IMG/VR virus record: IMGVR_UViG_3300045988_115891
Location: 1-35,841 of that record
DNA from: a virus
Length of the DNA: 35,841 nt
Reading direction: 5' to 3' (one strand)
The notes beneath the pieces were generated by a model. That model ran no database searches and was not told the origin of the DNA. It was given only the letters and a program-made list of their open reading frames with translations. The translations under genes were made by a program, and so were the position numbers. Shown here in pieces: positions 1 through 35,841 of this stretch (the first letter of the stretch is position 1; every line of letters starts with the position of its first letter).

Positions 1-55
1 AAGCTCCTGCGCTGTAAGTGTAACTCATAGGGTAACGGACAACGCCGCAGAAACG
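1..55. repeat. 55-bp terminal direct repeat, identical to 35787..35841 (circular-contig overlap)
   Basis: AAGCTCCTGCGCTGTAAGTGTAACTCATAGGGTAACGGACAACGCCGCAGAAACG occurs at both window ends. An ORF reads continuously across the junction. Confidence 0.95.
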
Positions 56-5484: not shown

Positions 5485-5983
5485 GCAAGAGCAAGCTTTA
5501 GAAACGCTGACAATTCTTGTCGATACAAGGGAACACGAAACAGCCGAAGCAGTCCGTAGATGGTCTGCTTTTGGCAAGCCGTGGCGAAAAGAGAAGCTTG
5601 ACAGCGGAGATTATTCCGCAGAACTTCTCTTGCCGAGTGGCGAAACTTGGCGTGTGCCTTGCGTTATCGAAAGGAAAATGAATTTGTCGGAAATCTGCGG
5701 TAATTTTGGCACGAACCGAGGACGGTTTATCCGAGAATTTGAGCGGATAAAAGAAAGCGGCTTGAAATGCTATCTGCTGATAGAAAACGATAGTTGGGAA
5801 AATGCGTATGCAGGGCGATACAAGTCGCTGATGAAGCCGAAAGCCCTCATATCGAGTTTAACGGCGTGGTCGGCAAGATACAACGCTCATATCGTGTTTT
5901 GCAAAGACCGCACGACACCAAAATTGATAGCGGAGATATTGTACCGAGAAGCAAAGGAGATTTTGAAAAATGGCGATTGGTGA
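5465..5983 (+). CDS. ERCC4/Mus81-type structure-specific nuclease (putative junction resolvase)
   Basis: Motifs VDTREH, SGDY and IERK are in the order typical of ERCC4 nuclease domains. ATG at 5465 follows GAGGAG. Confidence 0.65.
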   Translation: MSLLPIEQEQALETLTILVDTREHETAEAVRRWSAFGKPWRKEKLDSGDYSAELLLPSGETWRVPCVIERKMNLSEICGNFGTNRGRFIREFERIKESGLKCYLLIENDSWENAYAGRYKSLMKPKALISSLTAWSARYNAHIVFCKDRTTPKLIAEILYREAKEILKNGDW

Positions 5984-6410
5984 TGAAAATAAATTTGACG
6001 GTGAAAAGGTAAGACTTGACCTTGTCGAGCCGAGCCTTATCGAAGCGATAGGCAAGGTTAGGACATATGGCATTAAAAAGTATACCGATGAACAGTCATG
6101 GAGAAAAGTCGAGAAGCCGAGATATGTAGCGGCGGCTATGCGACACTTTGAAGCGTATCGCAAGGGCGAAAGCAACGATGCCGAAAGCGGTATGCCGCAC
6201 TTATGGCATTGTGCTTGTAACCTTATGTTCCTCATCGAACTGGAAAAAGAACAGCAGGCAAAGCAGACTTTTAGTGACGGGTATGAACTCGACAACGAGG
6301 TAAAGTGCAAGCACTGCAAATATCACAGCGAAAAAACACAGCATTGCATACGCAAGGCGGAAGTCACAGACGATAACTATTCGTGCGGAATGGGAGTGTT
6401 GCGAAAATGA
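5970..6410 (+). CDS. dATP/dGTP diphosphohydrolase N-terminal-domain-like (DUF5664-like) protein with a C-terminal Cys cluster
   Basis: N-terminal pattern KFDGEKVRLDLVEP...KYTDEQSWRKV...AAMRHFEAY...ESGMPHLWHCACNLMFL matches my memory of this phage family. RBS AAGGAG. Confidence 0.5.
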   Translation: MAIGDENKFDGEKVRLDLVEPSLIEAIGKVRTYGIKKYTDEQSWRKVEKPRYVAAAMRHFEAYRKGESNDAESGMPHLWHCACNLMFLIELEKEQQAKQTFSDGYELDNEVKCKHCKYHSEKTQHCIRKAEVTDDNYSCGMGVLRK

Positions 6411-9907: not shown

Positions 9908-9936
9908 TTGACATTTTCTCGGCGAAACGGTATAAT
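9908..9936 (+). promoter_or_regulatory. sigma-A type promoter TTGACA-17-TATAAT
   Basis: TTGACA 9908..9913, 17-bp spacer, TATAAT 9931..9936. Confidence 0.75.
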
Positions 9937-9983
9937 AAAACTATGAAAAAAGACAAGAAGCGAGTGTCGAATAGGAGGAAACA

Positions 9984-10514
9984 TTGAAAATCACTGAAAT
10001 AAGCGTAAAGGATTTGAAGCCTTACGCTAAGAACACGAAGAAGCACGATAAAACGCAGATTGCAAACGTGGCAGAGAGTATCAAGCAGTACGGTTTTGTC
10101 CAGCCGATAGTCGTTGATAAGGATAACAGTATTGTCATCGGGCATTGCAGATATGAAGCGGCGAAGAAGCTGAAGCTTGAAACCGTTCCCTGCGTTTGCG
10201 TTGATGAACTGACAGACGAACAGATAAAGGCTCTGCGAATTGTTGACAACAAGAGTAACGAAAGCCCGTGGGATATGGAGTTTCTTGCAGACGAGCTTGC
10301 GGAAATTGATATGAACGAATTTGATTTTGATTTTGGAATTAATGCAGTTGATGAGAACGATATTCCAGATGTCGAAGAAAAAGAATTAAAGCCGTACAAG
10401 AAAGTGCATTATTTGATCACGCTTGACATAAACGAAAACGATAAAGTTATAGACTTGATAAAGCAGATTGAAAGCGTGGGGGGGGGCGTAGAAGTTGACA
10501 GTACACTCAATTAA
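9984..10514 (+). CDS. ParB-like N-terminal (ParBc/sulfiredoxin-fold) domain protein
   Basis: TTG start 5 nt after AGGAGG. The sequence ISVKDLKPYAKNTKKH...IKQYGFVQPIVVDKDNSIVIGHCRYEAA is the ParB N-domain pattern. No HTH is evident. Confidence 0.7.
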   Translation: MKITEISVKDLKPYAKNTKKHDKTQIANVAESIKQYGFVQPIVVDKDNSIVIGHCRYEAAKKLKLETVPCVCVDELTDEQIKALRIVDNKSNESPWDMEFLADELAEIDMNEFDFDFGINAVDENDIPDVEEKELKPYKKVHYLITLDINENDKVIDLIKQIESVGGGVEVDSTLN

Positions 10515-11040
10515 AACAGACAACGCAAACCTCTCTCACAAGGTGTATCTGCGCAGAAAAGCAACGAAAGGCTTAAAAGAACTTTGTGTGTTGGATTGCT
10601 TTGCAGGCGAAAATCGTATATGGGGTAACTTCGATTGCAAAAAGTATTACGGTATAGAAAAAGTTAAAGGCAAGGGTAAAAACTTAAACGCCGACAACGA
10701 AAGAGTTTTAAAAAGTTTAGATTTGTCAAAATTTAACGTGATAGATTTAGACAGCTATGGTATCCCGGTTGCAAGTTTTTTGAACATATTTGAAAATCCG
10801 ACACTGAAAAAAGGAACTGTGATTATTTACACTTGCATAGGGAACGCAATGTCAGCACTCCCGAAAGGCTTGGTAAAATCGTTTGGTCTTACAAAAATGT
10901 ATCCGAAATGCCCCTCGCTCTTTAACAAAAGAGGTCACGACTTGTTTTACGGTTTGCTTTATGAGTACGGCGTGAGAAAAGTAACTGAGTACCGTGCTGA
11001 TACCAGTTTTGAAAAAACTTACGGCTTCTTCGTTTTTTAG
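10495..11040 (+). CDS. small class-I SAM-methyltransferase-fold protein
   Basis: Motif I-like VLDCFAGEN and a TRM1-like VIDLDSYG motif. It has a TTG start and overlaps the ParB-like gene by 20 nt. Confidence 0.5.
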   Translation: MTVHSIKTDNANLSHKVYLRRKATKGLKELCVLDCFAGENRIWGNFDCKKYYGIEKVKGKGKNLNADNERVLKSLDLSKFNVIDLDSYGIPVASFLNIFENPTLKKGTVIIYTCIGNAMSALPKGLVKSFGLTKMYPKCPSLFNKRGHDLFYGLLYEYGVRKVTEYRADTSFEKTYGFFVF

Positions 11041-11050
11041 CTTAAAAGTG

Positions 11051-11079
11051 TTGACTTTTGTGCTAAATAGTGATATAAT
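11051..11079 (+). promoter_or_regulatory. sigma-A type promoter TTGACT-17-TATAAT
   Basis: TTGACT 11051..11056, 17-bp spacer, TATAAT 11074..11079. Confidence 0.7.
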
Positions 11080-11132
11080 AATAATGTAGCAGAAAGCTAC
11101 GAAAATCACATTGATTAAAGGAGAAAAAAGTT

Positions 11133-11915
11133 ATGTCGATGATTTATGAACCCGCAGGAAAAGCAAGAGAGTACAGTCCTCTCGCACTCAACGTTTATTT
11201 AGGTTGTAGTCACAAATGCGAGTATTGTTACGCAAATGCGATGGCAAGAAGGAACGGAAACAGTTGTTATTTTGGAAATCCAAGCCCAAGAGCAAAGGTT
11301 CTTGAAACGCTTCCGAAAGAGCTTAAAAAGTGCAAAAGAGAACAGGTGCTTCTTTCGTTTATCGGTGATGCTTATTGCGAAACAACAGACGATAACGCAC
11401 TTACACGTTCTGTTCTTGAAATGCTTCTTGAAGCTAAAATGCCCGTTGCAGTTCTTACAAAAGGTGGAAAGCGTTGCCTTAAAGACCTTGACCTTTTTAA
11501 GCGCTTCGGCGAGCATATTCAGATAGGCGCAACACTTACGTTTGATAATGACGCTGATTCGCTCAAGTGGGAAAGCGGTGCGGCACTCCCGTCAGAAAGA
11601 CTTGAAACGCTTAAGATTTTGCACGATAACGGAATTAGAACATTTGTAAGCTTTGAACCTGTTATCGTTCCCGAGCAGAGTTTGCGTCTTATGGAGCAAA
11701 GCCTTGATTTTGTAGATGTTTATAAGGTCGGAAAGCTTAACAACTACAGAGGTCTTGACAAAGCTATAAACTGGACTGATTTTCTTGAGAAAACAGTAAA
11801 GCTTTTAAGAGAAAACAAAAAATCATTTTATATCAAACACGATTTAAGACTTGCCGCTCCGACCGTTAGACTTTACGGAAACGAAGTCCTTGCGGACGAA
11901 CACAATGTCCAGTAA
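11133..11915 (+). CDS. radical SAM enzyme, spore-photoproduct-lyase/DNA-repair-photolyase-like (COG1533-type)
   Basis: N-terminal LNVYLGCSHKCEYCYA contains the CxxxCxxC cluster in the context typical of SplB-like radical SAM proteins. RBS AAAGGAG. Confidence 0.65.
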   Translation: MSMIYEPAGKAREYSPLALNVYLGCSHKCEYCYANAMARRNGNSCYFGNPSPRAKVLETLPKELKKCKREQVLLSFIGDAYCETTDDNALTRSVLEMLLEAKMPVAVLTKGGKRCLKDLDLFKRFGEHIQIGATLTFDNDADSLKWESGAALPSERLETLKILHDNGIRTFVSFEPVIVPEQSLRLMEQSLDFVDVYKVGKLNNYRGLDKAINWTDFLEKTVKLLRENKKSFYIKHDLRLAAPTVRLYGNEVLADEHNVQ

Positions 11916-11925
11916 ATTGTTTTAT

Positions 11926-11956
11926 AGCGGTGGGCTTATAGCCTGCCGCTTTTTTA
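11926..11956 (+). terminator. intrinsic terminator after the radical SAM gene
   Basis: 10-bp stem 11926..11935 / 11941..11950 (two G-U pairs), 5-nt loop, then TTTTT. Confidence 0.6.
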
Positions 11957-11976
11957 TTTTAGGAGGAAAAATCACA

Positions 11977-12105
11977 GTGACGATTGACGAAGCAAAGGAA
12001 ATCATCAGAAAAACGAAAAGCCCGTATCTGAAAAGAGATATGGAGAAGTTTATTAAACGCACTCAGAAAAAGCTAAAAGAAAAAGTTTTGCAGAAAGGAG
12101 ATTAA
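11977..12105 (+). CDS. small basic protein (42 aa, GTG start)
   Basis: GTG lies 8 nt after AGGAGG. The track ORF start at 11851 would overlap the radical SAM gene and span the terminator. Confidence 0.4.
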   Translation: MTIDEAKEIIRKTKSPYLKRDMEKFIKRTQKKLKEKVLQKGD

Positions 12106-12108
12106 ACA

Positions 12109-12453
12109 ATGCCAAATGCACAGAATTTAAAGCCAGGAGCTTACAAGCTGTCAAAGGAAGAAATGGCGAAAGGTGGAAGAAACTCACATAAAAAGATGAG
12201 GGAGCGAAAGCTCCTTCGTGAGTGCCTTTCCGAACTTTTGCAGATGGAATATGACACGAAGCAAGGAAAGAAACTCGGCAGTGAAATGTTGTCGGCGATG
12301 CTGATGAAAAAAGCGATGAGCGGAGACATCAAGGCTTTTGAGGTTCTCCGTGACACAGCAGGAGAAAAGCCAGTTGATAAAGTTATGGTCGCAGATGTTG
12401 AAAAGACTATCATTGACGAAGTGGAAAAAATGGTAAAAGATGAAACCGATTGA
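12109..12453 (+). CDS. putative terminase small subunit
   Basis: 114 aa with a basic N-terminus, upstream of TerL. RBS AAAGGAG. The call rests on position and general resemblance only. Confidence 0.45.
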   Translation: MPNAQNLKPGAYKLSKEEMAKGGRNSHKKMRERKLLRECLSELLQMEYDTKQGKKLGSEMLSAMLMKKAMSGDIKAFEVLRDTAGEKPVDKVMVADVEKTIIDEVEKMVKDETD

Positions 12454-13408
12454 ATTATGGCACGGTGATTGTCTTGAATTGATGAAAGATATTCCTGATG
12501 GCTCGGTGGATTTGGTGCTGACTGACCCGCCGTATGGCACTACAGCTTGCAAATGGGATAGCGTTATTCCTTTTGAGCCGATGTGGGAACAGTTGAAACG
12601 CATTGTAAAAAGAGGAGGTACAATTGTTCTCTTTGGTAGCGAGCCTTTTTCAAGCCTGTTAAGAGCAAGCAATATTGACTGGTACAAATACGACTGGATT
12701 TGGGAGAAAGAACAAAGTTCAGGCGGATTGCAAGCCAAAATTGCACCGATGAAAAAGCACGAAAATATAAGTGTGTTTTTTCAAACGCCAACAGACGATA
12801 CAACAAATGCCTATCAATCTTTGAAAGAGTATTTTCAGTCCGAAAAGAAAAAAAGCGGGTTAAACTCAAAACAAATTAAAGAGTTGCTCGGTAACTATAT
12901 GGCACGCCATTATTTCACAAATGGGTCGCAGTTTTGCATACCATCGGAAGAAAACTATAAAAAACTGCAAAGCACAGGATTTTTTCAGACTCCATTTGAA
13001 GAAATAAAAAAGCAATATAAAGAAGATTGCCAAAACACATACAATCCGCAAATGATGGTTGGTAAACCATACAAAGGTCATTTTGCACCAGGCGCAGAGG
13101 TGCATGGAAAGGCAACTCATTATGTAAAAGATAATGACGGCATAAGATACCCTACAAGCGTTTTAAGGTTTAATAGGGCAAAAAGGTTGCACCCAACACA
13201 AAAGCCAGTTGACTTGCTTGAATATCTTATCCGTACATACACTAATGAGGGAGAAACTGTCCTTGACTTCACAATGGGAAGCGGTAGCACTGGCGTCGCT
13301 TGCGTGAACACTAATCGCCGCTTTATCGGCATTGAACTTGATGAGGGATATTTCAACACCGCAAAAAAGAGGATTGAGGAAGCCTATGACAAGAGAACAA
13401 GCGGTTAA
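12440..13408 (+). CDS. beta-class N4/N6 DNA methyltransferase
   Basis: Motif IV DLVLTDPPYG lies near the N-terminus. HPTQKPVDLL and motif I FTMGSGSTGVAC lie near the C-terminus, the circular-permutation order of the N-4/N-6 MTase family. Confidence 0.85.
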   Translation: MKPIELWHGDCLELMKDIPDGSVDLVLTDPPYGTTACKWDSVIPFEPMWEQLKRIVKRGGTIVLFGSEPFSSLLRASNIDWYKYDWIWEKEQSSGGLQAKIAPMKKHENISVFFQTPTDDTTNAYQSLKEYFQSEKKKSGLNSKQIKELLGNYMARHYFTNGSQFCIPSEENYKKLQSTGFFQTPFEEIKKQYKEDCQNTYNPQMMVGKPYKGHFAPGAEVHGKATHYVKDNDGIRYPTSVLRFNRAKRLHPTQKPVDLLEYLIRTYTNEGETVLDFTMGSGSTGVACVNTNRRFIGIELDEGYFNTAKKRIEEAYDKRTSG

Positions 13409-35742: not shown

Positions 35743-35841
35743 TCAGATGTTGTTGCAACCGCAAGAGTTACAACCGCAGAAAGGAAAAGCTCCTGCGCTG
35801 TAAGTGTAACTCATAGGGTAACGGACAACGCCGCAGAAACG
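35743..35841 (-). CDS. 3' end of the wrapped Cys-rich membrane protein gene (same gene as 1..538)
   Basis: The frame continues from position 1 (=35787) as ...GAFPFCGCNSCGCNNI to TGA at 35745..35743. Confidence 0.75.
   Translation of the reverse strand, partial: RFCGVVRYPMSYTYSAGAFPFCGCNSCGCNNI
35787..35841. repeat. 55-bp terminal direct repeat, identical to 1..55
   Basis: Exact identity read from the sequence. Confidence 0.95.

What the first reader, a model, noticed from the sequence alone, without database searches (positions are those of the whole stretch)
9984..13408. ParB-like domain, small MTase-fold protein and SPL-like radical SAM enzyme, clustered with a second DNA MTase wedged between TerS and TerL
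- Four consecutive functions point to covalent DNA chemistry:
  - a ParB N-domain protein without an HTH (9984..10514);
  - an overlapping 181-aa SAM-MTase-fold protein with VLDCFAGEN and a TRM1-like IDLDSYG motif (10495..11040);
  - a 260-aa radical SAM enzyme whose CSHKCEYC cluster and context resemble spore-photoproduct-lyase / COG1533 enzymes (11133..11915), with its own consensus promoter and terminator;
  - a beta-class DPPY N4/N6 DNA MTase (12440..13408) inserted between the putative small and large terminase genes, overlapping both.
- ParB-domain/MTase pairs are common in phages. The MTase-fold plus SPL-like radical SAM pair is not a characterised pathway as far as I know.
- I have a vague recollection of a prophage-associated radical-SAM/partner-protein pair (the TcmP-type annotation). 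I cannot verify that from here.
- Possibilities:
  - a radical-SAM-dependent DNA base hypermodification used as anti-restriction;
  - repair of spore-photoproduct-type lesions in phage DNA carried through host spores;
  - a modification coupled to packaging.
Basis: partly seen in the sequence, partly recalled or inferred. Interest (0 to 1): 0.7.

Follow-up and report, generated by a model that had tools for sequence, protein, structure and literature searches.

The report
Conserved phage ParB–methyltransferase–radical-SAM module
Three adjacent genes in this gut phage form a cassette found in more than a hundred other phages. It most likely modifies the phage's own DNA in two steps, one of them radical chemistry, but nobody has tested its function.

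Summary
The four ORFs and their motifs are real. Only the first three form a conserved unit.

**The triad.** ParB_N (9984-10514), a 181-aa Trm1-like SAM-transferase-fold protein (10495-11040) and a 260-aa radical SAM enzyme (11133-11915) travel together.
- Of 124 distinct loci carrying the small protein, 117 have a radical-SAM-type gene right after it: 114 of this family, 12 of them on the opposite strand, and 3 DUF5131.
- 111 loci have ParB_N directly upstream. Its stop overlaps the small gene's start in 90% of cases.
- Natural ParB_N–small and HNH–small fusions exist.

**What the parts resemble.**
- The small protein has no Pfam, PHROG or NCBIfam family. Its nearest relative is tRNA N2-guanine methyltransferase Trm1 (DxD[S/A]YG versus DxDPFG).
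- The radical SAM enzyme belongs to the SPL/COG1533 clan. It is not spore photoproduct lyase.
- It aligns with phage M6 gp53, the one radical SAM enzyme shown to remodel a DNA base adduct.

**The fourth gene.** The DPPY methyltransferase between TerS and TerL is unrelated cargo in a variable slot.

**Best reading (about 0.5).** A two-step, post-replicative DNA modification: transfer of a SAM-derived group, then radical elaboration. TcmP/DUF5131 is an analogue, not the same family. No experiment or paper addresses the triad.

The parts
9908..9936 (+). Perfect sigma-70-type promoter (TTGACA-17-TATAAT) in front of the ParB_N/small-protein gene pair
   Evidence: scores it 12/12. It is one of only seven sites scoring 11/12 or better in the 35.8-kb window, all on the + strand. 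Function is inferred from the consensus match and the position.
9984..10514 (+). ParB_N (ParB/Srx, NTP-binding fold) protein, 176 aa, without an HTH and with a conserved ~55-aa C-terminal mini-domain. Proposed DNA-targeting or NTP-switch subunit.
   Evidence: Pfam ParB_N 4.2e-13; phrog_620 5.6e-45 and phrog_498 (ParB-MTase) 1.6e-39; PADLOC MTase_II N-terminal domain 9e-26. Across 106 homologues the conserved residues are N17, G53, R56 (the GHxR box II), N89, H142, E170 and N176. The RBS is AGGAGG at 9973.
10495..11040 (+). Minimal (181 aa) class I SAM-dependent transferase-fold protein with a Trm1-like catalytic motif. Proposed to install a SAM-derived group on a nucleobase amino group. It belongs to a family with no curated model.
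   Evidence: AlphaFold pLDDT 92.4. Foldseek PDB hits are class I MTases and include Trm1 3axs. The two best PDB sequence hits of the family profile are both Trm1, aligned at DxDPFG. TRM1/TRM HMM hits are weak but recurrent. Family invariants are D84, D86 and T113, with near-invariant K16, R20, G38, Y88 and P91. The gene overlaps the ParB gene by 20 nt; the overlap is conserved in 90% of 105 loci. ParB_N-small and HNH-small fusions exist.
11051..11079 (+). Second strong promoter (TTGACT-17-TATAAT with an extended -10 TG) in front of the radical SAM gene
   Evidence: 11/12. It is not conserved in relatives L001, L003 and L014.
11133..11915 (+). Radical SAM enzyme, 260 aa, of the SPL/COG1533 clan, with a single [4Fe-4S] motif CxxxCxYCY. 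Proposed second-step enzyme acting on the modified DNA base.
   Evidence: Pfam Radical_SAM 8.4e-14 and a weak DUF5131 hit at 8.5e-6. PA0069, Rv2578c and mobile-pair-B match in 38 of 38 family members. The only invariant cysteines are C25, C29 and C32. AlphaFold pLDDT 94.7. SPL structures give the highest TM-scores in the Foldseek list (0.61-0.65), alongside SuiB (0.61-0.64) and lipoyl synthase (up to 0.64). hhalign against phage M6 gp53 gives probability 93%, E 3.2e-7, over 150 columns.
11926..11960 (+). Intrinsic terminator (11-bp G+C-rich stem, then TTTTTTATTTT) closing the cassette before the packaging genes
   Evidence: No equivalent was found in the three relatives scanned.
12109..12453 (+). 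Putative small terminase subunit. This is context, not part of the module.
   Evidence: Identified by its position before TerL. Only phrog_2412 (unknown function) matches, at 6.7e-7. Homologues precede TerL in L043, L046, L052 and L053.
12440..13408 (+). Beta-class N6/N4 DNA methyltransferase (DPPY). Independent cargo in the TerS-TerL slot, not part of the conserved module.
   Evidence: Pfam N6_N4_Mtase 3.5e-33, above its cut-off; phrog_67 1.1e-83. In triad-bearing relatives with the same TerS and TerL, the slot holds other genes instead.

Best explanation
The unit is a three-gene cassette: a ParB_N protein, a minimal Trm1-like SAM-dependent transferase and an SPL/COG1533-clan radical SAM enzyme. 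It most likely carries out a two-step, post-replicative covalent modification of the phage's own DNA.

- **Step 1 (inferred).** The ParB_N protein is translationally coupled to the small transferase and, in some genomes, fused to it. It supplies DNA binding or NTP-gated loading that the transferase lacks, since the transferase has no target-recognition domain. The transferase uses SAM to place a group on an exocyclic amino group of a base. A methyl group is the most likely. G-N2 is suggested by the Trm1-type DxD[S/A]YG motif; A-N6 and C-N4 are possible.
- **Step 2 (inferred).** The radical SAM enzyme has one [4Fe-4S] cluster, no auxiliary cluster, no cobalamin domain and no RlmN-type cysteine pair. 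It cleaves a second SAM to the 5'-deoxyadenosyl radical, abstracts a hydrogen from the installed group or the base, and rearranges or elaborates it. Phage M6 gp53 does this to N-alpha-glycinyl-thymidine in DNA.
- **Outcome (inferred).** A non-canonical base that blocks host nucleases.

**Shown:** the folds, the motifs, the gene linkage, the fusions and the family relationships. **Inferred:** the substrate (DNA), the order of steps, the chemistry and the anti-restriction role.
For: **Linkage.**
- Of 124 distinct loci with the small protein, 114 have this radical SAM family immediately downstream: 102 on the same strand and 12 convergent. 3 have DUF5131 instead. 111 have ParB_N directly upstream and 107 have the full triad.
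- The linkage holds down to about 30% identity of the small protein, and across phages with different terminase types.

**Physical coupling.**
- The ParB stop and the small-gene start overlap in 90% of 105 loci, with a median of -16 nt.
- Natural fusions exist: ParB_N-small (P0253) and HNH-small (P0381, P0382, P0333). The HNH fusion P0381 is again followed by a radical SAM gene.

**DNA as substrate.**
- The ParB_N domain is the type fused to phage DNA MTases (PMC12704722).
- HNH is a DNA nuclease domain.
- In L053, ParB plus small occupy the TerS-TerL slot where this window has a DNA MTase.
- The radical SAM family sits in COG1533, whose characterised members (SPL, M6 gp53) both act on DNA. 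Its cellular members are SOS-regulated (PMC8989533, PMC8565304, PMC3381160).

**Active enzymes.**
- SAM motif I, the acidic motif II and the invariant D84/D86 with near-invariant Y88 are conserved in the transferase.
- CxxxCxxC is invariant in the radical SAM enzyme.

**Ecology and context.**
- The 40 genome hits are all metagenome-assembled genomes, most of them named as gut anaerobes or from gut samples (human, rabbit, chicken, reindeer, termite), which fits an oxygen-labile enzyme.
- No nucleotide-level hypermodification genes were found among the early genes scanned, so any modification would be made on the DNA polymer.
Against: - No experiment exists, and no modified base has been shown in any triad-bearing phage.
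- The Trm1 similarity is weak: E about 1e-4 against HMMs and 0.06 against PDB sequences. Trm1 is an RNA enzyme, so the target atom, and even DNA versus RNA, is not settled.
- At least four loci have ParB plus small without a nearby radical SAM gene (L053, L056, L084, L107). The first step can therefore stand alone and the two activities could be independent.
- The similarity to M6 gp53 covers only the radical SAM core (150 of 480 residues), and none of gp53's pathway partners are present.
- The related TcmP/DUF5131 pairs are listed as candidate defence systems (PDC-M30/M41), not as anti-restriction modules.
- The loci were recruited through the small protein. The reverse statistic, how many of these radical SAM genes lack the partner, was not measured.
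Confidence: 0.5

Rival explanations
1. There are two independent functions that merely travel together. ParB_N plus the small protein form a split ParB-MTase that simply methylates DNA. The radical SAM enzyme is a stand-alone DNA-repair enzyme of the SPL/PA0069/Rv2578c type. It would repair a lesion in phage DNA, either spore photoproduct or another radical or UV lesion.
For: - ParB plus small occur without the radical SAM gene in L053, L056, L084 and L107.
- Related radical SAM genes (32% identity) occur in cultured Bacteroidales phages without ParB or the small protein.
- COG1533 genes are SOS-regulated repair-type genes in bacteria (PMC8565304, PMC3381160).
- SPL is among the best structural matches (TM 0.65).
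- The window gives the radical SAM gene its own promoter.
Against: - Adjacency is kept in 114 of 124 loci, including 12 where the gene is inverted. It is kept over deep divergence and alongside different terminases. That is hard to explain without a shared function.
- In other lineages DUF5131 replaces the radical SAM enzyme at the same position.
- SPL-specific models barely match: 0.008 in 2 of 38 members.
- The hosts include non-spore-formers.
Confidence: 0.2
2. The module is a defence or counter-defence system rather than a self-DNA modifier. One version is a prophage-encoded superinfection-exclusion system analogous to the TcmP/DUF5131 candidate systems. Another is an enzyme pair that destroys or alters a host immune signal or nucleotide.
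For: - TcmP plus DUF5131 match the PADLOC candidate systems PDC-M30 and PDC-M41 strongly. On pSymA they sit beside the Hna defence helicase (PMC12445080).
- The window's radical SAM enzyme weakly matches PDC-M41B/M30B (about 1e-4).
- The cassette has its own strong promoters and terminator, like a moron.
- ParB/Srx-fold proteins can act as NTPases or nucleases in conflict systems (PMC10853773).
Against: - The small protein is not a TcmP member.
- No toxin or effector domain is present in the common triad form.
- The promoter and terminator layout is not conserved in relatives.
- The conserved position is at the replication/packaging boundary, where phage DNA MTases typically sit.
- PDC systems are themselves untested.
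- A bacterial TcmP/DUF5131 pair could equally be the modification half of a restriction-modification-like system.
Confidence: 0.12
3. The target is RNA, for example host or phage tRNA. A Trm1-like methyltransferase plus a radical SAM enzyme would build a modified nucleoside, as Trm5 and TYW1 do for wyosine, in order to reprogramme translation or to protect tRNAs from anticodon nucleases.
For: - The only sequence and fold relatives with a known substrate are tRNA enzymes (Trm1).
- MTase plus radical SAM cascades are well established in tRNA modification (general knowledge of the Trm5/TYW1 and MiaA/MiaB pathways).
Against: - The Trm1 C-terminal tRNA-binding domain is absent.
- The partners are DNA-type modules: the ParB_N type found on DNA MTases, and HNH.
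- The radical SAM enzyme belongs to the DNA-linked COG1533 clan rather than to the TYW1, MiaB or RlmN families.
Confidence: 0.1
4. The module is an accessory to genome packaging. It would mark or process the pac/cos region for the terminase, as HNH or ParB-like nucleases next to terminase genes do in some phages.
For: - The triad usually lies directly upstream of TerS and TerL.
- HNH-fused variants exist.
- In L053, ParB plus small lie between TerS and TerL.
Against: - The module accompanies unrelated terminase families (Terminase_6N, Terminase_3, T7-like). In L066 it lies after the head genes.
- Nothing in packaging biology requires a SAM transferase plus a radical SAM enzyme.
- The position is also the usual home of phage DNA MTases.
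Confidence: 0.05

Closest known systems
Pseudomonas phage M6 gp53, an SPL-like radical SAM isomerase in thymidine hypermodification (Lee et al., NAR; PMC8989533)
   Same: It is a phage-encoded, COG1533-type enzyme annotated 'DNA repair photolyase'. It acts post-replicatively on a base adduct that another enzyme has already installed in DNA. Its core aligns with the window enzyme: hhalign probability 93%, E 3.2e-7, 150 columns, 23% identity.
   Different: gp53 is 480 aa with large N- and C-terminal extensions. It works on 5-hmdU-derived N-alpha-glycinyl-thymidine and is accompanied by a kinase, an aGPT-Pplase and a PLP enzyme. None of these were found in the window. Here the partner is a SAM-transferase fold plus ParB_N.
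Spore photoproduct lyase (SplB; PDB 4FHC-4FHG)
   Same: It is a radical SAM enzyme acting on DNA, with the same CxxxCxYCY cluster motif and a single cluster. It has the highest TM-scores among solved structures (up to 0.65), though SuiB and lipoyl synthase reach 0.64. The SPL-family model TIGR03886 matches 11 of 38 members weakly.
   Different: Sequence identity is about 10%. The window enzyme is 260 aa against 340 aa. SPL-specific models are not met. There is no invariant hydrogen-donor cysteine. The hosts are not restricted to spore-formers. SPL works alone, whereas this enzyme is tied to two partner genes.
TcmP / DUF5131 ('three-Cys-motif partner' pair; NCBIfam TIGR04474 plus Pfam PF07505; PADLOC candidates PDC-M30/M41)
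   Same: It is a two-gene pair: an MTase-fold protein carrying Trm1-like motifs (xDAFAGGG, LDPFG) and a radical-SAM-related three-Cys protein. It is found on mobile elements. Distant homologues of the window's small protein are themselves paired with DUF5131 (L058-L060). The window's radical SAM enzyme weakly matches DUF5131.
   Different: The small protein is not detectably homologous to TcmP beyond motif I (hhalign 6%) and is about 100 aa shorter. The partner here is a canonical CxxxCxxC enzyme of the COG1533 type. ParB_N is an added third component. The function of TcmP/DUF5131 is itself unknown.
Phage ParB_N-DNA methyltransferase fusions (phrog_498, PADLOC PDLC03229; surveyed in PMC12704722)
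   Same: They carry the same type of ParB_N domain (1.6e-39 and 9e-26), sit at the same position in phage genomes and use a SAM-dependent partner domain. A natural ParB_N-small fusion exists (P0253).
   Different: The catalytic partner is not an N6_N4 or Methyltransf_23 domain. It is an unclassified minimal Trm1-like fold encoded as a separate overlapping gene. A radical SAM gene is also attached.
Trm1, tRNA (guanine-N2)-dimethyltransferase (PDB 2DUL, 3AXS)
   Same: It is the closest sequence and fold relative with a known reaction. The catalytic motif [IV]DxDP[FY]G corresponds to IDxD[SA]YG, followed by the same strand.
   Different: All matches are below the curated cut-offs. The tRNA-binding C-terminal domain is missing. 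The genomic partners point to DNA.
'Radical SAM mobile pair' proteins A and B (TIGR04471/TIGR04470)
   Same: The window enzyme aligns almost end to end with protein B (residues 18-236 against 21-233 of 285, 1e-16). DUF5131 proteins weakly match protein A. Both pairs live on mobile elements.
   Different: The score is 61 bits against a cut-off of 410. No protein-A-like gene is present in the window. The pair's function is unknown.

Membership tests
Radical SAM superfamily (PF04055) | The HMM score is above Pfam's gathering cut-off, and the CxxxCxxC cluster motif is conserved | tested here: met
   52.5 bits against a cut-off of 29.5. C25, C29 and C32 are invariant in 38 homologues. The model has the partial TIM-barrel fold.
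Spore photoproduct lyase (TIGR04070 / TIGR03886) | A match to the SPL equivalog model at or above its cut-off | tested here: not met
   The window protein has no SPL hit at E<=0.1. TIGR04070 matches 2 of 38 family members (best 0.008). TIGR03886 matches 11 of 38 (best 6e-4).
Spore photoproduct lyase (TIGR04070 / TIGR03886) | A conserved hydrogen-atom-donor cysteine outside the cluster motif (C141 in B. subtilis) | tested here: not met
   The only invariant cysteines are the three cluster ligands. C82 and C114 are replaced in several members. Positional equivalence to C141 was not established by structural superposition.
Spore photoproduct lyase (TIGR04070 / TIGR03886) | Occurrence in endospore-forming hosts, acting as a stand-alone repair gene | tested here: not met
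   Hosts include Megasphaera, Eggerthellaceae and Kiritimatiellia. The gene is tied to ParB_N and the small protein in 107 of 124 loci.
PA0069 / Rv2578c families (COG1533 'DNA repair photolyase') | An HMM score above the NCBIfam cut-off | tested here: not met
   67.8 bits against 360, and 54.4 against 430. All 38 members match at 1e-15 to 1e-24, so clan-level kinship is clear but membership is not.
Radical SAM mobile pair protein B (TIGR04470) | An HMM score above the cut-off, and a protein A (TIGR04471) gene as neighbour | tested here: not met
   61.2 bits against 410. No DUF5131- or protein-A-like ORF is found in the window.
TcmP, three-Cys-motif partner protein (TIGR04474) | A match to TIGR04474, or profile-profile homology to bona fide TcmP | tested here: not met
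   None of 49 family members hits TIGR04474 at E<=1. hhalign of the broad family profile against a TcmP alignment gives probability 6%, aligning motif I only. The control TcmPs from pSymA score 9e-50 and 9e-64.
TcmP, three-Cys-motif partner protein (TIGR04474) | Pairing with a DUF5131 (PF07505) gene | tested here: inconclusive
   The window's partner is a canonical radical SAM enzyme with only a weak DUF5131 hit (8.5e-6, below the cut-off). Distant homologues of the small protein in L058-L060 are followed by true DUF5131 genes (2.5e-68).
Trm1 / TRM family (PF02005, TIGR00308) | An HMM score above the cut-off | tested here: not met
   19.9 bits against 280.65. Pfam TRM reaches at most 23.1 bits against a cut-off of 27 in distant members.
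Trm1 / TRM family (PF02005, TIGR00308) | The catalytic DxDP[FY]G motif on a class I MTase fold | tested here: met
   IDLDSYG at residues 83-89. D84 and D86 are invariant and Y88 near-invariant across 59 diverse members. The motif aligns to FIDLDPFGSP of 2DUL and 3AXS. The fold is confirmed. Serine or alanine replaces the proline.
Trm1 / TRM family (PF02005, TIGR00308) | A C-terminal tRNA-binding domain | tested here: not met
   The protein is 181 aa and ends with the Rossmann core. The aligned Trm1 chains are 378-392 aa.
ParB_N-DNA MTase fusion proteins (phrog_498 / PDLC03229) | A ParB_N domain of this subtype | tested here: met
   1.6e-39 and 9.2e-26 over profile positions 8-144 of 436. The box II residues G53 and R56 are conserved.
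ParB_N-DNA MTase fusion proteins (phrog_498 / PDLC03229) | A covalently fused N6_N4-type MTase domain | tested here: not met
   The protein ends at 176 aa with no MTase domain. The catalytic fold is a separate, overlapping gene of a different family. A fused version is seen in P0253.
Beta-class N6/N4 DNA methyltransferase (PF01555), for 12440-13408 only | An HMM score above the cut-off, a DPPY motif IV and the permuted IV-before-I order | tested here: met
   115.9 bits against 26.7. DPPY is at residues 29-32 and FTMGSGSTG lies near the C-terminus.
M6 gp53-type DNA-adduct radical SAM isomerase | Homology to gp53, plus co-occurrence with the 5-hmdU kinase, aGPT-Pplase and PLP decarboxylase genes | tested here: inconclusive
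   Core homology is detected: hhalign 93%, BLASTP 8e-6. gp53's extensions are absent, and none of the pathway genes were seen in the ORFs scanned.
Any DNA-modifying enzyme | A modified base demonstrably present in the DNA | not testable with these tools
   This needs LC-MS/MS or single-molecule sequencing of DNA from a triad-bearing phage or from an expression host.

The most novel reading that the evidence does not exclude
The triad writes a previously undescribed hypermodified base into phage DNA under anoxic conditions. A ParB_N-guided, Trm1-like enzyme alkylates an exocyclic amino group, possibly the minor-groove N2 of guanine. An SPL-clan radical SAM enzyme then converts that adduct by 5'-deoxyadenosyl-radical chemistry into something no known pathway makes. 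The related TcmP/DUF5131 pairs in bacterial defence islands would then be the cellular counterpart of the same chemistry.
Probability: 0.3. Interest if true: 0.85.

Novelty: new variant of a known kind. Interest (0 to 1): 0.66.

Why it matters
- **Only one precedent.** Phage M6 gp53 is the only radical SAM enzyme shown to take part in installing a DNA modification. Its authors state that SPL was the only other radical SAM enzyme known to act on DNA.
- **Scale of the family.** This cassette would be a second, much more widespread case. The small protein's family has about 1,000 clusters at 50% identity, 151 IMG/VR contigs encode a relative, and prophages carrying it occur in many gut anaerobes. 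Its first-step enzyme family has no Pfam, PHROG or NCBIfam model.
- **If it makes a new base.** It would add to the catalogue of anti-restriction DNA chemistries. It would explain part of the 'dark matter' of gut phage genomes. It would matter for sequencing and for engineering gut phages. It would also give a functional handle on two untested groups: the TcmP/DUF5131 candidate defence systems and the SOS-regulated PA0069/Rv2578c enzymes.
- **If it does not.** If it turns out to be a methylase plus a repair enzyme, the finding is ordinary.

Tried and rejected
- **Close relatives among deposited phages.** Megablast of the region against GenBank phages gave no match. By protein search, only the uncultured Dulem virus 36 carries the triad. 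It is annotated ParB / hypothetical / PA0069 family, so no cultured model phage was found.
- **TcmP membership.** Two single-sequence hhalign runs and one profile-profile run gave only motif I. Membership is rejected, although TcmP shares Trm1-like motifs by eye.
- **Sequence search of the PDB.** The narrow family profile found nothing. The broad profile put Trm1 first and second but not significantly. The radical SAM profile found only a generic radical SAM chain.
- **Viral structure library (BFVD).** It returned only generic MTase folds.
- **Literature.** Searches were run for TcmP, DUF5131, PA0069, COG1533, PDC-M30/M41, for ParB with radical SAM, and for radical SAM with hypermodification. 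No paper addresses this triad.
- **The cassette's own promoter and terminator.** I tested whether they are conserved. They are not, in three relatives, so no 'moron' argument is built on them.
- **Glycyl-radical-type activation.** I considered that the radical SAM enzyme might activate the small protein, because of the conserved C-terminal K-x-Y-G-[YF]-F. I rejected this: the segment is a predicted core beta-strand, and the glycine is not conserved in the broad family.
- **RlmN/Cfr-type, B12-type or methylthiotransferase chemistry.** Rejected, because there is no second conserved cysteine pair, no auxiliary cluster and no extra domain.
- **The DPPY MTase as a fourth component.** Rejected.

Full report
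**1. What is in the sequence**

The window is a complete metagenomic scaffold (ENA ERZ28579885, scaffold_178). Its first 55 nt repeat at its end, so it is probably a complete circular or circularly permuted phage genome of about 35.8 kb. Almost all genes are on the + strand.
- The gene order is a replication and recombination module, then the region of the finding, then the packaging genes.
- The replication module holds a Sak4-like annealase, an ERCC4-type nuclease, a primase fragment and a VapE-type helicase/primase.
- The packaging genes are a putative TerS, TerL, an SPP1-type portal and the structural genes.

The domain calls are these.
- **9984-10514:** ParB_N only (Pfam 4.2e-13), with no HTH.
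- **10495-11040:** no Pfam, PHROG or PADLOC family, and a weak NCBIfam TRM1 hit (3.9e-4).
- **11133-11915:** Radical_SAM (8.4e-14), a sub-threshold DUF5131 hit (8.5e-6), and sub-threshold hits to PA0069 (8e-19), 'radical SAM mobile pair protein B' (1e-16) and Rv2578c (1e-14).
- **12440-13408:** N6_N4_Mtase (3.5e-33) with DPPY.

- TTGACT-17-TATAAT lies at 11051-11079.
- A strong hairpin and T-run lie at 11926-11960.
- A perfect TTGACA-17-TATAAT lies at 9908-9936, in front of the ParB gene.
- Only seven sites in the whole genome score 11/12 or better, and all are on the coding strand. They are real features, not chance.

**2. The conserved unit is a triad, not a tetrad**

Homologues of the small protein (167 clusters at 90% identity) and of the radical SAM protein (1,148 clusters) are abundant in metagenomes, and many sit on the same contigs. 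I fetched loci through the small protein from three sources: GTDB genomes (40 loci), IMG/VR (151 confirmed, 80 kept) and individual metagenome contigs. I then scored the neighbours with profile HMMs.

Among 124 distinct small-protein loci:
- 114 have this radical SAM family immediately downstream, with a median gap of 4 nt between stop-to-stop frames.
- 3 have a DUF5131 gene there instead.
- 111 have a ParB_N gene directly upstream.
- 107 have all three genes.

In 12 loci the radical SAM gene is on the opposite strand yet still abuts the small gene. This argues for selection on proximity rather than inherited operon structure. The association persists down to about 30% identity of the small protein. 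It also holds next to unrelated terminase types: T7-like/Terminase_6C, Terminase_3 and Terminase_6N. In L066 it lies after the head genes.

The ParB stop codon overlaps the conserved start of the small gene in 90% of 105 loci, with a median of -16 nt. That is a conserved translational coupling.

An exhaustive profile search of 1.84 billion representatives found about 1,000 family clusters (411 at E<=1e-10). Nearly all are stand-alone proteins of 180-200 aa. There are a few fusions: ParB_N-small (P0253) and HNH-small (P0381, P0382, P0333). The HNH fusion P0381 is again followed by a radical SAM gene.

By contrast, the DPPY methyltransferase is not linked to the triad. Relatives with the same TerS and TerL carry other genes between them.
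- L043 and L052 carry an HNH_3-like homing endonuclease.
- L046 carries four unrelated ORFs.
- L053 carries ParB plus the small protein themselves.

The TerS-TerL junction is a cargo slot, and the MTase in this window is independent cargo. Triad phages often carry ordinary N6/N4 or C5 MTases elsewhere.

**3. What the three proteins are**

*ParB_N protein.*
- It matches the N-terminal domain of phage ParB-DNA-MTase fusions far better than it matches partition ParBs: phrog_498 1.6e-39, PADLOC MTase_II 9e-26.
- It keeps the box II GxxR residues (G53, R56) that a recent survey showed to be needed for NTP binding in this fold (PMC12704722).
- It also has a conserved C-terminal mini-domain of about 55 aa (H142, E170, N176) of unknown role.

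*Small protein.*
- The AlphaFold model is confident (pLDDT 92.4) and is a seven-stranded class I SAM-MTase fold.
- The family conserves motif I (LDxFxGxG/N), an acidic residue after strand 2, and an invariant D84-x-D86-[S/A]-Y88-G-x-P.
- The only family it ever touches in Pfam, NCBIfam or PDB sequence searches is Trm1, always at that motif. IDLDSYGIP aligns with IDLDPFGSP, and Trm1 takes ranks 1 and 2 of 177,635 PDB sequences for the broad profile. None of these matches is significant.
- It has no target-recognition domain, which explains its dependence on a ParB_N or HNH module.

*Radical SAM enzyme.*
- The model is confident (pLDDT 94.7).
- The only invariant cysteines are C25, C29 and C32, in CxHxCxYCY, which is the SPL-type CxxxCxYCY. 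It therefore has one cluster, no auxiliary Fe-S site, no B12 domain and no RlmN-type cysteine pair.
- All 38 sampled members hit the COG1533-type families PA0069, Rv2578c and mobile-pair-B (1e-15 to 1e-24). SPL models are hit marginally: TIGR03886 in 11 of 38 and TIGR04070 in 2 of 38.
- SPL structures give the highest TM-scores among PDB matches (up to 0.65), closely followed by SuiB (0.64) and lipoyl synthase (0.64). SuiB and SkfB rank first by E-value.
- The core aligns with Pseudomonas phage M6 gp53: hhalign probability 93%, E 3.2e-7; BLASTP 8e-6.
- gp53 is annotated 'DNA repair photolyase'. It was shown experimentally to isomerise N-alpha-glycinyl-thymidine to the C-alpha form in DNA. Its authors call it the first radical SAM enzyme involved in installing a DNA modification (PMC8989533).
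- Cellular COG1533 genes are SOS-regulated in several phyla (PMC8565304; Rv2578c in PMC3381160).
- Every member of this clan with any functional evidence is therefore tied to DNA.

**4. The TcmP lead**

I located bona fide TcmP genes on S. meliloti pSymA, next to a DUF5131 gene and the Hna helicase.
- TIGR04474 scores for the two TcmP genes are 9e-64 and 9e-50.
- TcmP carries xDAFAGGG and LDPFG, so it is also a Trm1-like fold.
- TcmP plus DUF5131 correspond to the PADLOC candidate defence systems PDC-M30 and PDC-M41, which are untested.

The window's small protein is not a TcmP. No HMM hit appears in 49 members, and profile-profile comparison aligns only motif I (probability 6%).

The analogy is nevertheless real. 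Distant homologues of the small protein (L058-L060, about 29% identity) are preceded by ParB_N and followed by a true DUF5131 gene (2.5e-68) in place of the COG1533-type enzyme. The window's enzyme itself weakly matches DUF5131 and PDC-M41B.

So there is a wider theme: a Trm1-like SAM-fold protein paired with a radical-SAM-type Fe-S protein on mobile elements. This triad is a distinct, phage-borne branch of that theme with a ParB added.

**5. Most likely mechanism**

*Shown.* There are three co-inherited genes, two of them translationally coupled and occasionally fused. One is an intact SAM-transferase fold with an amino-methyltransferase-type motif. One is an intact single-cluster radical SAM enzyme of the DNA-linked clan.

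*Inferred.*
- ParB_N, or HNH in other lineages, brings the minimal transferase to DNA.
- The transferase alkylates an exocyclic amino group.
- The radical SAM enzyme then abstracts a hydrogen from that adduct or base and rearranges or extends it, following the install-then-sculpt logic proven for M6 gp53.
- The product protects phage DNA.

*Consistent observations.*
- ParB plus small can occur alone (L053, L056, L084, L107), which fits a first step that stands by itself.
- The early genes scanned contain no nucleotide-level hypermodification enzymes, so any chemistry must be done on the DNA polymer.
- The 40 genome hits are all metagenome-assembled genomes, most named as gut anaerobes or drawn from gut samples (Oscillospiraceae, Christensenellales, Megasphaera, Eggerthellaceae; termite, rabbit, chicken, reindeer and human gut). 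This suits an oxygen-labile enzyme.

I put about 0.5 on 'DNA modification by the triad as a unit', and about 0.3 on the product being a genuinely new hypermodified base.

**6. Rivals**

- **Split methylase plus an independent SPL/PA0069-like repair enzyme (0.2).** It is favoured by the radical-SAM-less loci and by related radical SAM genes in Bacteroidales phages that lack the partners. It is disfavoured by the conserved adjacency, including inverted cases, and by the DUF5131 substitution. Spore-photoproduct repair specifically is unlikely.
- **Defence or counter-defence function (0.12).** It rests on the PDC-M30/M41 analogy and on the cassette's own promoters. The promoter and terminator layout is not conserved, and no effector domain is present.
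- **RNA target (0.1).** It rests only on Trm1.
- **Packaging accessory (0.05).** It rests only on position.

**7. Novelty and verdict**

No paper in the searchable library addresses this triad. The only GenBank phage record carrying it, Dulem virus 36, calls the small gene 'hypothetical' and the radical SAM gene 'PA0069 family'.

The parts belong to known superfamilies and the logic has one experimental precedent (M6 gp53). I therefore rate it a new variant of a known kind rather than categorically new. It is widespread, tightly conserved and directly testable, and its first-step enzyme family has no curated model. Interest: 0.66.

Noticed in passing
window 1-55 and 35787-35841: The first 55 nt are identical to the last 55 nt, and the window equals a whole ENA scaffold. 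It is probably a complete circular or circularly permuted phage genome of about 35.8 kb.
   Followed up: partly
window 1261, 7174, 9908, 11051, 17479, 27329, 30323 (+ strand): There are seven sigma-70 consensus promoters scoring 11/12 or better, all on the coding strand. Five are perfect TTGACA-17-TATAAT, with A-rich upstream regions, and they sit at the starts of gene blocks. About 0.004 perfect sites would be expected by chance.
   Followed up: partly
window 12440-13408; L043 5413-6126; L052 7942-8502; L046 4211-6701; L053 5406-6549: The junction between the putative TerS and TerL is a cargo hot spot. It holds a DPPY MTase in this window, an HNH_3-like homing endonuclease in L043 and L052, four ORFs in L046, and ParB plus the small protein in L053.
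   Followed up: partly
window 11977-12105: A 42-aa lysine-rich ORF (GTG start, with AGGAGG 8 nt upstream) lies between the cassette's terminator and the putative TerS. It was not characterised.
   Followed up: no
window 5970-6410: A 146-aa ORF gives partial matches to phrog_801 (dATP/dGTP pyrophosphohydrolase, profile positions 99-195 of 476) and to T7-lysozyme-like endolysin families. Its domain identity is unclear.
   Followed up: no
L054 6594-7475 and L055 7301-8257: In two IMG/VR phages a second, longer ParB (293 aa) is inserted between the small protein and the radical SAM gene.
   Followed up: no
L050 (2,248-nt IMG/VR contig): Radical SAM gene fragments lie at both ends of the contig and flank ParB plus the small protein. 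This could be a circular mis-assembly or a tandem arrangement.
   Followed up: no
L064 14221-19882 (S. meliloti pSymA): A DUF5131 gene and two divergent TcmP genes lie next to the Hna defence helicase. They match PADLOC candidate systems PDC-M30 and PDC-M41. TcmP carries Trm1-like motifs (IDAFAGGG, FLDPFG).
   Followed up: partly
L056 5413-6159: In one phage the position of the radical SAM gene after ParB plus small is taken by a 248-aa protein with no Pfam, NCBIfam or PADLOC match. It may be an alternative partner.
   Followed up: partly
L146 15189-17249 (Pseudomonas phage M6): The characterised radical SAM isomerase gp53 is annotated 'DNA repair photolyase'. It lies directly upstream of a gene annotated as terminase small subunit, which is a position similar to that of the triad here.
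   Followed up: no
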